A stretch of DNA of 40,884 nt, from the UHGV virus genome UHGV-2008032; one strand, 5' to 3'. This stretch comes from a virus. The position numbers were made by a program, and so were the translations under genes. Below, piece after piece: positions 9,786-16,032 of this stretch (position 1 is the first letter of the stretch; each line of letters begins with the position of its first letter). Below the pieces are notes generated by a model. It saw only the letters and a program-made list of their open reading frames with translations, was not told the DNA's origin and did not search any database.

Positions 9786-10058
9786 TTACCTGGCTGTCAG
9801 TTGTTTTGATTTCCGGTAGCCTGCCGAGTAAATGGCTACGTTTGGCAGGCAAATACTTCCACTGCATTCTTCTGCCTTCTTGCAGCGAAGGCTTCCTAGT
9901 GATGCTGCTTTATCTGCTCTGACGCAACCAGAGAGCTTTAGCGCAATTTTTCGTGACAATCGCTGTTCTTGCATTGCCTGTTCACGTTGAGCCTGTCTGC
10001 GTGCTCTGCGGCGATTTCTGGCGTTATCGTCAGCCAGATATGTAATGACTACTGTCAT
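9786..10058 (-). CDS. N-like antitermination protein (arginine-rich motif)
   Basis: N-terminal NARNRRRARRQAQREQ arginine-rich motif; first gene downstream of PL and nutL, the position of lambda N. Confidence 0.5.
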   Translation of the reverse strand: MTVVITYLADDNARNRRRARRQAQREQAMQEQRLSRKIALKLSGCVRADKAASLGSLRCKKAEECSGSICLPNVAIYSAGYRKSKQLTAR

Positions 10059-10165
10059 GTTGACCTCCGATGATTGACTTTGGCGGTGACGCGCCGGGTG
10101 CTTATCTTCCGGTTGCCGTCGTGCAGCTGCACTTCACGTCACCCCAAAGCCAACTACTCTTTGGT

Positions 10166-10207
10166 TCCCGCATTTCGGCGGGACAATCCCATCAATGTTA
10201 AAGAGCC
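10166..10207 (-). promoter_or_regulatory. nutL (boxA GGCTCTTTAACA + boxB hairpin)
   Basis: Minus-strand boxA then 6-bp boxB stem TCCCGC/GCGGGA with loop CGAAAT, identical to the boxB at 11396..11415. Confidence 0.65.
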
Positions 10208-10252
10208 TGCCAATCTGTTCCGTTTGGCTACCAGCTTCCTGCTGATGGCTAG

Positions 10253-10281
10253 ATAATCACAAATTGTGGTCGTACTGTCAA
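10253..10281 (-). promoter_or_regulatory. PL candidate promoter (TTGACA-17-GATTAT)
   Basis: Minus-strand -35 at 10281..10276 and -10 at 10258..10253, overlapped by operator sites. Confidence 0.55.
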
Positions 10282-10316
10282 CACGAAATGTGATTGTTTT
10301 TATCACAACCCGTGTT
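10256..10316. promoter_or_regulatory. OL operator cluster (three 15-bp sites, consensus ATCACA-N3-YGTGKT)
   Basis: Sites at 10256..10270, 10281..10295 (reverse) and 10302..10316; same motif as the OR sites. Confidence 0.55.
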
Positions 10317-10357
10317 TACATTGATTTTAAAGGTAATTTAATTTTCTTTGGGCAACA

Positions 10358-10380
10358 AAAAACCCGCCGAAGCGGGTTTG
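10358..10380 (-). terminator. Terminator downstream of cI (U-rich on both strands)
   Basis: Stem AAACCCGC/GCGGGTTT with loop CGAA; U-run follows on the minus strand, 23 nt past the cI stop. Confidence 0.65.
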
Positions 10381-10402
10381 ATGTTTTTAAGTGGCGGGTA
10401 TA

Positions 10403-11044
10403 TCAGGAGAATTTCATCATCATCTGCACTGCTACGCCGATTATCTTGCAGTTGCCGTCGATTGGGATCAACGGATAGGCAGGGTTAAGCCCTTTCAGGT
10501 ATTTGTTACCGCCATCAATGATTAGCTTCTTGAACGTGGCTTCATTAGCATCTGTCAGCTTCGCAACTACCAGGCTTCCATTAACGGCTTCCTTTCCAGT
10601 GTCGAACAGAACCAGCATACCCTCAGGAACGCTAAGGCCGGTAGGAGCTGTCATTGAGTCGCCCTGAACCCTGAGCCAGAAGGCGTCACCGACAACGTGA
10701 CAATCTGATTCATACCACTCATCCACTGCCTGAGGGTTGTACGGCTCTACGGCCTCACTCCATGCACCTGCGCTAACCCAGCTAATCAACGGAAACTTTT
10801 CCCCTGGCTTGTATTGTCCCTGATAGTTGTCGCCAAAAAGCAGTTCTGCCGGAGCGACACCCAAAGCTTTAGCTATTACCTCTGCGTCATCAACACTAAC
10901 GCTTCTGGTTCCTGATTCATAGTTGCCGATCCGAGATTGTGAAGCCCAGCCGCAAAGCTCCGCAAGAGCCTTCTGTGTAAGCCCTTTATCTTCCCGTAAT
11001 CGCTTGATACGCGCGGCGATAGTTTCTGTTCTGTTCATGCGCAT
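10403..11044 (-). CDS. cI: CI-like repressor (HTH plus LexA-like S24 autopeptidase)
   Basis: N-terminal XRE-type HTH; C-terminal GDSM serine and downstream lysine; divergent from cro; -10-like TATAAA abuts the ATG, so the mRNA may be leaderless. Confidence 0.85.
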   Translation of the reverse strand: MRMNRTETIAARIKRLREDKGLTQKALAELCGWASQSRIGNYESGTRSVSVDDAEVIAKALGVAPAELLFGDNYQGQYKPGEKFPLISWVSAGAWSEAVEPYNPQAVDEWYESDCHVVGDAFWLRVQGDSMTAPTGLSVPEGMLVLFDTGKEAVNGSLVVAKLTDANEATFKKLIIDGGNKYLKGLNPAYPLIPIDGNCKIIGVAVQMMMKFS

Positions 11045-11049
11045 TTTAT

Positions 11050-11111
11050 ATCACATTCCGTGGTTTAAGGCTTTACACGATTTGTGTTGACTATCAATCA
11101 CAATGTGTGTT
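11050..11111. promoter_or_regulatory. OR operator cluster (three sites) with PR
   Basis: Sites at 11050..11064, 11075..11089 (reverse) and 11097..11111; PR -35 TTGACT 11087..11092, -10 about 11110..11116; cro ATG at 11149. Confidence 0.55.
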
Positions 11112-11148
11112 TAATAAAGACTGAGTGAACTAGCTCTTAAGGAAACCT

Positions 11149-11364
11149 ATGAACAACATTGCCAACGAACGGAAAAAGCTTGGCATCACTCAATCTGCGT
11201 TAGCAGGCGCGTGTGGCTGGAACCAGTCCCGCTTAGCTAACTACGAGTCAGGTATCCGGACTCCAGATTTAGAGTCGTGCCGTAGCCTGGTAAAGGCGCT
11301 GAATAAATTGGGGAGCAAGACAACGCTAGATGGCTTGTTCCCGCCGCGTAAGAACGCCGCATAA
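11149..11364 (+). CDS. cro: Cro-like HTH repressor
   Basis: 71 aa, XRE-type HTH; SD AAGGA; divergent from cI. Confidence 0.75.
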   Translation: MNNIANERKKLGITQSALAGACGWNQSRLANYESGIRTPDLESCRSLVKALNKLGSKTTLDGLFPPRKNAA

Positions 11365-11370
11365 GCAAAT

Positions 11371-11415
11371 TGCTCTTTAACAGTCATGGTCCTCATTCCC
11401 GCCGAAATGCGGGAA
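11371..11415 (+). promoter_or_regulatory. nutR (boxA TGCTCTTTAACA + boxB hairpin)
   Basis: boxA 11371..11382; boxB stem TTCCCGC/GCGGGAA with loop CGAAAT at 11396..11415; near-identical to nutL. Confidence 0.65.
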
Positions 11416-11472
11416 TACAACGCGCATAAGTTGATGCGCATAACTTCTTATTTGTTAAGGAAATACTTACAT

Positions 11473-11751
11473 ATGGAACTTACAAGTACTCGCAAGAAAG
11501 CGAATGCAATTACAAGCAACATCCTAAATCGAATTGCTGTACGTGGTCAGCGAAAGGTTGCCGACGCGTTAGGGATTAATGAATCGCAAATTTCGCGATG
11601 GAAAGACAGCTTCATCCCCAAAATGGGAATGCTTCTTGCTGTTCTTGAATGGGGTGTTGAAGACGAGGAGTTGGCGGAACTGGCTAAGAAAGTAGCCAGA
11701 ATGCTGACAAAAGAAAAAGCCCCGAAGAACGGCGAATTCTTCGAGGCCTGA
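11473..11751 (+). CDS. cII: CII-like transcriptional activator
   Basis: ...[26 protein letters not shown]... matches the lambda CII helix-turn-helix region as recalled; start could instead be ATG 11434. Confidence 0.65.
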
Positions 11752-15314: not shown

Positions 15315-16032
15315 GTTAATAAATGGCAATGCCATCAAAATGACAAGCATTGAAATCGCTGAGTTGGTAGAAAGCCGCCATAGCAATGTAAAAGTATCCA
15401 TAGATAGATTGGTGAAACGTGGCGTTATCAAGCCTCCTGCATTGCAGCACACTAACATAATCAATTATTTAGGTGTTATTACCGGGAAGCGTGATTTCTA
15501 CGTCTTCGAGGGCGAACAAGGTAAGCGAGACAGTATTGTCGTTGTTGCCCAGTTGTCGCCAGAGTTCACCGCTCGCCTTGTTGACCGCTGGCGAGAGCTT
15601 GAAGAAGCTGCGGTTAATATCCCCAAAACGCTACCAGAAGCGTTGCGCCTTGCTGCTGATCTTGCTGAGCAGAAAATGCAACTGGAAAACCAGCTCGCAA
15701 TTGCCGCACCTAAAGTTGAGTTTGCCGATCGCGTTGGCGAGGCCAGCGGAATTTTGATTGGAAACTTTGCAAAGGTTGTCGGTATTGGTCAAAACAAACT
15801 GTTTGCATGGATGCGCGATCACAAAATCCTTATTGCTTCAGGTTCCCGGCGAAATGTGCCAATGCAGGAATATATGGATCGCGGCTATTTCACAGTGAAA
15901 GAAACAGCGGTCAACACAAATCACGGAATACAGATATCGTTCACCACAAAAATCACCGGGCGTGGTCAACAGTGGCTGACCAGAAAGCTGCTCGATAACG
16001 GAATGCTGAAAGTAACAGGGGAGGCTGCTTAA
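15307..16032 (+). CDS. Rha-family regulatory protein with KilAC antirepressor C-terminal domain
   Basis: N-terminal Rha-like region; C-terminal ...FAKVVGIGQNKLFAWMRDHKIL... KilAC-like. Confidence 0.6.
   Translation: MNELINGNAIKMTSIEIAELVESRHSNVKVSIDRLVKRGVIKPPALQHTNIINYLGVITGKRDFYVFEGEQGKRDSIVVVAQLSPEFTARLVDRWRELEEAAVNIPKTLPEALRLAADLAEQKMQLENQLAIAAPKVEFADRVGEASGILIGNFAKVVGIGQNKLFAWMRDHKILIASGSRRNVPMQEYMDRGYFTVKETAVNTNHGIQISFTTKITGRGQQWLTRKLLDNGMLKVTGEAA

What the first reader, a model, noticed from the sequence alone, without database searches (positions are those of the whole stretch)
10253..11116. Two three-site operator clusters with a shared 15-bp motif overlapping PL and PR
Six sites fitting ATCACA-N3-YGTGKT occur as two triplets, overlapping the -35/-10 elements of a leftward TTGACA-17-GATTAT promoter and a rightward TTGACT promoter. 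A TATAAA -10-like element abuts the cI ATG, suggesting a leaderless PRM transcript as in lambda. This defines the immunity specificity of the phage.
Basis: seen in the sequence. Interest (0 to 1): 0.45.

Follow-up and report, generated by a model that had tools for sequence, protein, structure and literature searches.

The report
Lambda-style operators of a lambdoid phage
These are the left and right repressor-binding sites of an ordinary lambda-like phage switch, laid out almost base for base like phage lambda's, so they are real but textbook, and related phages already carry the same motif annotated as putative operators.

Summary
ATCACA-N3-YGTGKT matches exactly five times in 40.9 kb (0.00 expected), and all five matches lie in two clusters flanking a lambda-type cI gene. 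The sixth site, OR2 at 11074-11088, misses the written motif by two bases. Its position, its rank under a scoring matrix and its conservation still support it.

PL (TTGACA-17-GATTAT) is confirmed. PR (TTGACT-17-TTTAAT) is plausible, but its -10 lacks the usual A at position 2.

Spacings and promoter overlaps nearly match lambda's annotated operators. In 23 distinct OR and 28 distinct OL regions from related phages the half-sites are conserved and the central triplets and spacers vary. The OL cluster sits 0.8-2.3 kb from cro but keeps its internal spacing.

cI is 33% identical to lambda cI. cI and Cro share the recognition helix QSR[IL][GA]NYE.

There are two corrections:
- The lambda-like leaderless geometry points to the second in-frame ATG (11038), not the one the TATAAA abuts (11044).
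- The motif alone does not define immunity. VT1-Sakai and mEpX1, reported as a separate immunity group, carry the same operator family, already annotated as putative operators.

The immunity cassette matches phages ECP1 and mEp213, whose records annotate no operators. Verdict: a new member of a known kind, of low interest. No binding data exist.

The parts
10253..10258 (-). PL -10 hexamer GATTAT. The inferred transcript start is the A at 10246.
   Evidence: Promoter scan. The hexamer is invariant in 28 distinct relatives. The downstream sequence CCTGCTGAT is shared with lambda PL.
10256..10270 (+). OL1, ATCACAAATTGTGGT. It overlaps the PL -10 and the spacer.
   Evidence: Exact motif hit. Mean half-site information is 1.95 bits against 1.22 for the central triplet.
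10276..10281 (-). PL -35 hexamer TTGACA.
   Evidence: GTCAACAC is invariant in relatives.
10280..10294 (-). OL2, ATCACATTTCGTGTT on the minus strand. It overlaps the PL -35 and lies 24 bp from OL1, as in lambda.
10302..10316 (+). OL3, ATCACAACCCGTGTT. It lies 22 bp from OL2 and is the least conserved of the six sites.
   Evidence: Half-site information is 1.53 bits. The site is degenerate or absent in some relatives.
10354..10385 (-). Intrinsic terminator ending the cI transcript (tIMM-like). It has a GC-rich hairpin with a UUCG loop and a U6 tail.
   Evidence: The RNA fold is -16.8 kcal/mol with z = -3.56.
10403..11044 (-). cI repressor gene, with an HTH_3 N-terminal domain and a Peptidase_S24 C-terminal domain. 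The longest ORF gives 213 aa. The likely leaderless start at 11038 gives 211 aa.
   Evidence: Pfam. The closest solved relative is lambda repressor 3bdn, E = 1.2e-26. Identity to lambda cI is 33%.
11045..11050 (-). PRM -10-like hexamer TATAAA, preceded by TGn. It lies 6 nt upstream of the ATG at 11038 and overlaps the outer edge of OR3.
   Evidence: Read from the sequence. The register is the same as lambda's and as the VT1/mEpX1 clade's, where TAnnnT lies 6-7 nt upstream of the ATG in 34 of 34 distinct sequences. Promoter function is inferred.
11050..11064 (+). OR3, ATCACATTCCGTGGT. Its centre is at -19 relative to the proposed PRM start, as in lambda.
11074..11088 (-). OR2, AACACAAATCGTGTA on the minus strand. 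It has two mismatches to the motif and overlaps the PR -35. Its centre is at about -41 of PR and -43 of PRM.
   Evidence: Rank 7 under the scoring matrix. Half-site information is 1.90 bits.
11087..11092 (+). PR -35 hexamer TTGACT, identical to lambda's PR -35.
   Evidence: TTGA is invariant in relatives.
11097..11111 (+). OR1, ATCACAATGTGTGTT. It lies in the PR spacer and overlaps the -10. It has the top matrix score.
11110..11115 (+). PR -10 hexamer TTTAAT, 17 nt from the -35. It lacks the consensus A at position 2.
   Evidence: Read from the sequence. GTGTTTAAT is invariant in 23 relatives. The scan tool did not call it.
11149..11364 (+). cro, 71 aa, an HTH_3 protein. It is a paralogue of the cI N-terminal domain and shares its recognition helix.
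   Evidence: Pfam. Identity to the cI N-terminal domain is 49%, E = 1e-13. Alignment.

Best explanation
The six sites are the OL and OR operators of a lambda-type genetic switch. The immunity cassette runs from about 10234 to 11365, from PL to the cro stop codon. It matches phages ECP1 and mEp213.

Shown by sequence: each operator is an imperfect 15-17-bp palindrome. It has one strong half-site ATCAC(A/G), a free 3-bp centre, and a weaker half-site A(A/C/T)CAC(A/G).

Inferred mechanism:
- Dimers of the cI repressor bind these sites. Dimers of Cro bind the same sites, since Cro carries nearly the same recognition helix QSR[IL][GA]NYE.
- In a lysogen, cI on OL1/OL2 and OR1/OR2 covers the -10/-35 elements of PL and PR and shuts off the early leftward (N) and rightward (cro-cII-replication) transcripts.
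- cI at OR2, centred about -43, probably helps RNA polymerase at the weak PRM promoter. PRM would start at the A of the second in-frame ATG (11038) and give a leaderless cI mRNA.
- OR3 overlaps the PRM -10 and would give negative autoregulation by cI and early shut-off of cI by Cro.
- The repressor has the Ala-Gly, Ser and Lys residues needed for RecA-stimulated self-cleavage, so the switch should be SOS-inducible.

The confidence given is for the operator assignment as a whole. The leaderless-PRM step on its own is about 0.55-0.6.
For: Statistics: five exact motif hits against 0.00 expected, and no excess elsewhere in the window.

Anatomy: cI (HTH_3 plus Peptidase_S24) and cro (HTH_3) are divergent. 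N lies downstream of PL, and cII downstream of cro.

Geometry against lambda's annotated operators:
- OL1-OL2 is 24 bp in both phages.
- OR3-OR1 is 47 bp in both.
- The 17-bp OR2 overlaps the TTG of an identical TTGACT -35 in both.
- The PL -10 overlaps the first 4 nt of the 17-bp OL1 in both.
- Ten nucleotides separate the cI start codon from the 17-bp OR3 in both, if the window's start is 11038.

Phylogenetic footprint: across 23 distinct OR and 28 distinct OL regions (Cro identity 75-100%), half-site columns carry 1.84 bits, central triplets 1.13 bits and inter-operator spacers 1.05-1.22 bits.

Mobility of the OL cluster: it sits 840 to about 2,300 bp from the cro ATG in the relatives with Cro at least 75% identical. 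It keeps 24 bp between OL1 and OL2 and, where an OL3 match is present, 22-23 bp to OL3. No motif hits occur elsewhere in the roughly 5-kb loci.

Protein side:
- The closest solved structure is lambda repressor.
- Lambda residues Q33, Q44 and S45 align with Q, Q and S here. From my knowledge of the Jordan-Pabo and Beamer-Pabo structures, these residues contact the outer ATCAC of the lambda half-site. This fits the shared ATCAC.
- The recognition helix is invariant across cI and Cro relatives that keep this operator family.
- The A92-G93 cleavage site, S130 and K172 are invariant.

mEp213 is an experimentally defined immunity group of its own (PMC3442831).
Against: No binding, footprint or transcript-mapping data exist for this immunity type in anything I could search. 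The public records for ECP1 and mEp213 annotate no operators.

Conservation of the half-sites is partly confounded with conservation of the overlapping promoter hexamers.

The PR -10 (TTTAAT) lacks the nearly invariant A at position 2 and was not called by the scan.

The PRM hexamer TATAAA lacks T at its last position, and there is no recognisable -35. PRM, its activation by cI at OR2 and the leaderless start are therefore analogy only.

Cooperativity and OL-OR looping are untested.
Confidence: 0.88

Rival explanations
1. OR has only two true operators, OR1 and OR3. The so-called OR2 would be sequence conserved because it flanks and overlaps the PR -35. The switch would then have five sites, as in phage 933W, which has fewer than six.
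For: OR2 has two mismatches to the motif. At that stringency the window holds 13 hits against 9.8 expected. In shuffled sequence, 1.48 positions per 40.9 kb score as well as OR2. PMC10742460 states that 933W has only five operator sites.
Against: OR2 lies 24 and 23 bp from its neighbours, which is lambda's arrangement. Both of its half-sites keep the CAC core. Its conservation (1.90 bits) extends 12 bp beyond the -35 hexamer and exceeds that of OR3. OL2 with the PL -35 and OR2 with the PR -35 form mirror-image copies (I12). The VT1-Sakai record annotates a putative operator at the equivalent place.
Confidence: 0.1
2. The operators are real, but cI is not made from a leaderless mRNA. PRM would start further upstream, or translation would start at 11044 from a short-leader transcript, as the VT1-Sakai annotators assumed for their phage.
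For: The VT1-Sakai record places a putative maintenance promoter so that cI has a short leader, and AAGGG precedes its annotated ATG. The window's TATAAA lacks T at its last position. The first ATG at 11044 is kept as ATG or GTG in all 23 relatives, which hints that it is used. All public records call the 213-aa ORF.
Against: No Shine-Dalgarno-like sequence precedes either ATG in the window. The hexamer-N6-ATG register to 11038 equals lambda's. That register recurs as TAnnnT-N6/7-ATG in 34 of 34 distinct sequences of the VT1/mEpX1 clade, including TAGATT, lambda's own PRM -10. Only the second ATG is invariant in the window's clade.
Confidence: 0.35
3. The repeats are sites for a host factor such as CRP, or are merely promoter-associated conserved sequence, and are not phage repressor operators.
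For: The half-sites TCACA and TGTGA are the same pentamers as in the CRP consensus. This rests on my own knowledge of that consensus.
Against: CRP sites read TGTGA-N6-TCACA. Here the order is inverted and the gap is 3 bp (TCACA-N3-TGTGA). Adjacent operators give N9-N10, not N6. The motif occurs only beside cI/cro pairs that carry the QSR..NYE helix. It moves with them across mosaic genomes. HK620 has a related cI C-terminal domain but a different HTH, and it has quite different annotated operators at the same positions.
Confidence: 0.02

Closest known systems
Phage lambda OL1-3 / OR1-3 with PL, PR and PRM
   Same: Both have three sites on each side of cI. Operator-promoter overlaps are the same: the PR -35 TTGACT is identical, and the PL -10 overlaps OL1 by 4 nt. 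OL1-OL2 is 24 bp and OR3-OR1 is 47 bp in both. The start-codon-to-OR3 register is the same. The outer half-site ATCAC is shared. cI is homologous over both domains (33% identity, E = 8e-35), with Q33/Q44/S45 equivalents and the self-cleavage residues kept.
   Different: The inner half-site differs: lambda reads ATCACCG, this phage reads ATCAC(A/G)N with a free 3-bp centre. This cI lacks lambda's N-terminal arm, since the alignment begins inside lambda helix 1. The OR3-OR2 and OR2-OR1 spacings are swapped (24/23 here, 23/24 in lambda). OL2-OL3 is 22 bp, not 20. There are no rexAB genes, so OL and OR are 0.8 kb apart rather than about 2.4 kb. Cro here is an HTH_3 paralogue of the cI N-terminal domain, unlike lambda Cro. 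mEp213 immunity is reported as distinct from lambda's.
Putative operators annotated in Stx1 phage VT1-Sakai (AP000400), identical in mEpX1
   Same: It carries the same operator family, A(T/A/C)CAC(A/G)-N3-(C/T)GTG..: OR1 ATCACAAATTGTGTG, OL2 ATCACAAAATGTGTA, OR3 AACACGCAACGTGAT. Three sites lie on each side, with the same overlaps with TTGACT-17-TGTAAT and PL. The recognition helix pattern is the same (xSR[LI]GNYE), and Cro has NQSRLANYE-type helices.
   Different: The cI N-terminal domain is only 57% identical, and the whole protein 47%. The first helix-3 position is Pro instead of Gln. The outer half-site positions look less regular in the six VT1-Sakai sites; I read this by eye and did not quantify it. 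OR spacing is 24/24. mEpX1 is reported as a separate immunity group from mEp213. The sites are annotated there only as putative.
Phage 434 / P22-type switches
   Same: From my own knowledge, Cro and the repressor N-terminal domain in those phages are homologous all-helical HTH domains that read the same operators. The window shows the same relationship between its Cro and cI.
   Different: The operator sequences differ. I did not compare them with tools.
HK620 annotated OL/OR (AF335538)
   Same: The layout is the same, and the N leader and PL start region are nearly identical up to window position about 10251. The cI C-terminal domain is related (51% overall identity).
   Different: The repressor HTH differs, and the operators are unrelated (AATAC..GGTAT type). 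This shows that the motif tracks the HTH and not the backbone.

Membership tests
Lambda-type OL/OR tripartite immunity operators | Divergent cI (HTH plus S24 self-cleaving domain) and cro genes separated by a roughly 100-bp control region, with a second control region upstream of N | tested here: met
   ORFs and Pfam. The intergenic region is 104 bp. The N peptide family gene lies downstream of PL.
Lambda-type OL/OR tripartite immunity operators | Three related imperfect palindromes in each control region, absent elsewhere in the genome | tested here: met
   Five exact hits against 0.00 expected. OR2 is degenerate but ranks 7th of about 40,870 positions. The only other near-match is at chance level.
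Lambda-type OL/OR tripartite immunity operators | Sites overlap the -35/-10 elements of PL and PR | tested here: met
   PL was called by the scan. PR TTGACT-17-TTTAAT was read from the sequence and is conserved, but the tool did not call it because its -10 is non-canonical.
Lambda-type OL/OR tripartite immunity operators | Centre-to-centre spacing of 20-24 bp between adjacent sites | tested here: met
   The spacings are 24 and 22 bp at OL and 24 and 23 bp at OR. Lambda has 24/20 and 23/24.
Lambda-type OL/OR tripartite immunity operators | Sites conserved in relatives with the same DNA-reading helix, more than the surrounding DNA | tested here: met
   Half-sites carry 1.84 bits, against 1.13 for centres and about 1.1 for spacers. 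The OL cluster is mobile but keeps its internal spacing.
Lambda-type OL/OR tripartite immunity operators | Repressor and Cro physically bind the sites, with ordered affinities and pairwise cooperativity | not testable with these tools
   This needs EMSA or footprinting. No published data were found.
Lambda-type OL/OR tripartite immunity operators | PRM overlapping OR3, activated from OR2, giving a leaderless cI mRNA | tested here: inconclusive
   The register to the second ATG equals lambda's and recurs in the sister clade. No Shine-Dalgarno sequence is present. However, the hexamer TATAAA lacks the final T, there is no -35, and there are no transcript data.
Lambda-type OL/OR tripartite immunity operators | Repressor carries the Ala-Gly cleavage site and the Ser/Lys dyad for SOS induction | tested here: met
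   A92-G93, S130 and K172 align with the corresponding lambda residues and are invariant.
Lambda immunity itself (imm-lambda) | Operators matching TATCACCGC-type half-sites read by lambda cI, with shared immunity | tested here: not met
   Only ATCAC is shared, and the inner positions differ. cI is 33% identical. mEp213 is listed as a separate immunity group from lambda.
VT1-Sakai / mEpX1 operator family | Half-site A(T/A/C)CAC(A/G) with a 3-bp centre, and a repressor/Cro helix xSR[ILV][GA]NYE | tested here: met
VT1-Sakai / mEpX1 operator family | Same immunity group (cross-repression) | not testable with these tools
   The literature states that mEp213 and mEpX1 are separate immunity groups (PMC3442831). 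I did not see the primary cross-immunity data.
CRP binding sites | TGTGA-N6-TCACA | tested here: not met
   The half-site order is inverted and the gap is 3 bp. Neighbouring operators give N9-N10.

The most novel reading that the evidence does not exclude
Two experimentally heteroimmune lambdoid groups, mEp213/ECP1-type and mEpX1/VT1-Sakai-type, use operators with essentially the same consensus and near-identical recognition helices (ASQSRIGNYE against AAPSRLGNYE). Immunity specificity between them would then be set by something subtler than the half-site consensus. Candidates are the Gln/Pro at the first helix-3 position reading the outer two bases, central-triplet shape readout, or clade-specific cooperativity. 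If so, the pair would be a natural system for studying how new immunities bud off with minimal change, possibly with one-way cross-immunity.
Probability: 0.3. Interest if true: 0.4.

Novelty: new member of a known kind. Interest (0 to 1): 0.2.

Why it matters
The finding supplies operator, promoter and likely start-codon coordinates for an immunity type (mEp213 / ECP1 / Bas106 and 14 of the 5,426 complete E. coli genomes searched) whose public records annotate only the genes. That helps annotation, the design of virulent or reporter derivatives, and comparative work on how lambdoid switches diverge.

It adds no new principle. The architecture is lambda's, and the motif family was already annotated as putative operators in VT1-Sakai.

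The one mildly interesting thread is that phages reported as heteroimmune share this operator consensus.

Tried and rejected
- I searched the paper library for mEp213, ECP1, CurroJimenez/Bas106, mEpX1 and general lambdoid operator terms. No paper describes these operators. PMC10742460 and PMC8630535 concern other phages.
- A word-indexed homologue search with the cI N-terminal domain returned only 13 short proteins and was of little use. The degenerate-pattern locus searches replaced it.
- Rfam found nothing in the window.
- A CRP-site reading was considered and rejected on half-site order and spacing.
- The near-match at 15952 was checked and dismissed as an intragenic chance hit.
- Alternative PR -10 registers (TTAATA at an 18-nt spacer, TAATAA at 19 nt) were considered. 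They fit the consensus worse, and their distinguishing positions vary in relatives.
- I did not run structure prediction or the large protein-representative search, because neither could test DNA binding.
Full report
**What is there**

The finding's span (10253-11116) encloses a minus-strand gene, 10403-11044. Its product has an N-terminal HTH_3 domain and a C-terminal Peptidase_S24 domain. It is a cI/LexA-type repressor.

To its right lies a divergent 71-aa HTH_3 gene, cro (11149-11364), followed by a Phage_CII gene. To its left lies an N-peptide antiterminator gene, 9786-10058 on the minus strand. An intrinsic terminator follows cI (10354-10385).

**Checking the observation**

ATCACANNNYGTGKT matches exactly five times in the 40,884-base window, against 0.00 expected. 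Three matches lie at 10256-10316 and two at 11050-11111.

The sixth claimed site, 11074-11088, reads AACACAAATCGTGTA and has two mismatches. At that stringency the window is at chance level: 13 hits against 9.8 expected.

Other evidence supports the sixth site:
- A palindromic half-site scoring matrix trained on the other five ranks it 7th of about 40,870 positions.
- It falls in the one slot that gives lambda-like 24- and 23-bp spacings.
- The repeat finder recovers the same families unprompted.

Allowing one mismatch adds only a hit at 15952, inside an ORF, against 0.78 expected. The refutation condition, 'similar density elsewhere', is therefore not met.

**Promoters**

PL (TTGACA-17-GATTAT, 10281-10253, with TG before the second hexamer) is the only promoter the consensus scan reports in 9900-11600.

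The tool does not call it because its -10 lacks A at position 2. GTGTTTAAT is nevertheless invariant in all 23 distinct relatives.

**Where it comes from**

The segment 10050-11450 is 99.9% identical to phage ECP1. The stretch from about 10234 to 11365, from PL to the cro stop, is 98.5% identical to mEp213 and Bas106. DNA to the left of about 10251 matches many other lambdoids such as HK620.

This is the classical exchangeable immunity cassette. The rest of the window is a mosaic of other phages.

None of the ECP1 or mEp213 records annotates operators. mEp213 is reported as an immunity group of its own (PMC3442831). Fourteen of 5,426 complete E. coli genomes carry at least 80% of the 10050-11450 segment.

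**Comparison with lambda, using its annotated operators**

| Feature | Lambda | Window |
|---|---|---|
| OL1 to OL2 | 24 bp | 24 bp |
| OL2 to OL3 | 20 bp | 22 bp |
| OR3 to OR2 | 23 bp | 24 bp |
| OR2 to OR1 | 24 bp | 23 bp |
| OR3 to OR1 | 47 bp | 47 bp |
| PR -35 | TTGACT, overlaps the last three bases of the 17-bp OR2 | the same |
| PL -10 | overlaps the first four bases of the 17-bp OL1 | the same |
| Transcribed sequence after PL | ATCAGCAGG | ATCAGCAGG |

The outer half-site ATCAC is also shared. Lambda's half-site reads TATCACCG. Here it reads (T/A)ATCAC(A/G)N.

**Proteins**

The closest solved structure is lambda repressor itself (3bdn, E = 1.2e-26). Overall identity to lambda cI is 33% over both domains.

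In those alignments lambda Q33, Q44 and S45 align with Q, Q and S here. From my knowledge of the lambda repressor-operator crystal structures, these residues read the outer part of the half-site. This is an inference that fits the shared ATCAC.

The alignment begins inside lambda helix 1, so this protein has no counterpart of lambda's N-terminal arm. That arm reads the inner positions in lambda, so its absence fits the free 3-bp centre. This too is inference.

The Ala-Gly cleavage site and the Ser/Lys dyad are conserved.

Unlike lambda Cro, this Cro is a paralogue of the cI N-terminal domain (49% identity, E = 1e-13). It has nearly the same recognition helix: cI has SQSRIGNYE and Cro has NQSRLANYE.

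**Relatives as an independent test**

Pattern searches of viral contigs with Cro and with the cI N-terminal domain returned 80 and 73 loci. The Cro set gave 40 distinct OR regions with Cro identity of 55-100%.

In the 23 distinct OR and 28 distinct OL sequences with Cro at least 75% identical, information content is as follows:

| Columns | Mean information (bits) |
|---|---|
| Half-sites | 1.84 |
| Central triplets | 1.13 |
| Inter-operator spacers | 1.05-1.22 |

The invariant spacer bases are the promoter hexamers.

In those closer relatives the OL cluster sits 840 to about 2,300 bp from the cro ATG, depending on cargo inserted after cI. It keeps 24 bp between OL1 and OL2 and, where an OL3 match is present, 22-23 bp to OL3. 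No motif hit occurs anywhere else in the roughly 5-kb loci.

OL3 is the least conserved site and is degenerate or missing in some relatives.

HK620 has a related cI C-terminal domain but a different HTH. It has unrelated annotated operators at the same positions. The motif therefore follows the DNA-reading domain.

**PRM and the start codon**

TATAAA (11050-11045) abuts the ATG at 11044. A -10 element abutting an ATG cannot place +1 on that ATG.

The registers compare as follows (+ strand as listed, so CAT is the complement of the cI ATG):
- Lambda: CAT-ACGTTA-AATCTA-TCACC.
- Window: CAT-GCGCAT-TTTATA-TCACA, where CAT is the second in-frame ATG (11036-11038).

That second ATG is invariant in 23 relatives. 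The first start is GTG in two of them.

In the sister clade (VT1-Sakai/mEpX1), a TAnnnT hexamer lies 6-7 nt upstream of the first ATG in 34 of 34 distinct sequences. The hexamers include TAGATT, lambda's own PRM -10.

No Shine-Dalgarno sequence precedes either ATG in the window. I therefore favour a leaderless PRM transcript starting at 11038 and a 211-aa repressor, with a probability of about 0.55-0.6.

Three weaknesses remain. TATAAA lacks the final T, there is no -35, and the VT1-Sakai annotators assumed a short leader.

**Known relatives of the motif**

VT1-Sakai (AP000400) annotates three 'putative operators' on each side of cI:
- OR3 AACACGCAACGTGAT
- OR2 TACACGAATTGAGGT
- OR1 ATCACAAATTGTGTG
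- OL1 GTCACATATTGTGAT
- OL2 ATCACAAAATGTGTA
- OL3 GACACGTTATGTGTA

 The mEpX1 OR region is identical. A further 48 distinct sequences of that clade keep the pattern.

The operator family has therefore already been recognised, though only as putative. The VT1-Sakai cI N-terminal domain is 57% identical to the window's, and its helix reads AAPSRLGNYE.

mEpX1 and mEp213 are reported as different immunity groups. The 15-bp consensus as written therefore cannot by itself 'define the immunity specificity'. What distinguishes the two groups is unexplained.

**Verdict**

The sites are real and far beyond chance. They are almost certainly the OL/OR operators of a lambda-type switch. This instance is unannotated, but it is a new member of a thoroughly known kind. 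Binding, cooperativity, PRM activation and the leaderless start all remain inferences that need experiments.

Noticed in passing
window 10165-10183 and 11397-11415; 10189-10206 and 11372-11389: These look like nutL and nutR. A 19-nt boxB hairpin sequence (TCCCGCCGAAATGCGGGAA) is 100% complementary between the two arms. An adjacent boxA-like GCTCTTTAACA lies next to it, mirrored on either side of the immunity cassette.
   Followed up: partly
window 11506-11519 (-); also 144, 10952, 17175, 17788, 22114 (-) and others: The lambda cII-site pattern TTGC-N6-TTGC occurs 10 times against 2.95 expected. The copy 43 nt inside cII is where PRE would be expected. One copy lies inside cI, and several others might mark PI- or PaQ-like promoters.
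   Followed up: no
window 10321-10345: An AT-rich block just beyond OL3 (TTGATTTnAAGGnAATTTAnTTTT) is conserved in relatives, even where 0.4-1.5 kb of extra genes separate it from cI. It might be an upstream element or a bending-protein site for PL, or part of the cassette boundary.
   Followed up: no
relatives L018, L025-L063 (between cI and OL): The distance from OR to OL varies from 0.8 kb to 2.3 kb among relatives with the same switch. This implies a cargo slot downstream of cI, at the position of lambda rexAB. The window has none.
   Followed up: no
L003 (KY979108, ECP1) 1854-2240: The GenBank record for ECP1 annotates only a 387-bp hypothetical ORF where an intact 642-bp cI is encoded, 100% identical to the window's. 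This looks like an annotation gap rather than a mutation.
   Followed up: partly
window 1-40884: The window is a mosaic. The early region is 94-97% identical to mEpX2, HK75 and Sf6. The immunity region matches ECP1 and mEp213. The late region, 25-40.9 kb, is about 92% identical to Citrobacter phage Omnitron and has few E. coli phage matches.
   Followed up: partly
window 11036-11044 and the relatives' cI starts: Two in-frame start codons close together are conserved in both clades: ATG-NNN-ATG here and ATG-AAA-ACN-ATG in VT1/mEpX1, the latter often with a G-rich stretch before the second. Different starts may be used on leaderless PRM transcripts and on long-leader PRE transcripts.
   Followed up: partly
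window 15952-15966: A one-mismatch operator-like sequence, ATCACCGGGCGTGGT, lies inside a 241-aa ORF. It is at chance level (0.78 expected).
   Followed up: yes
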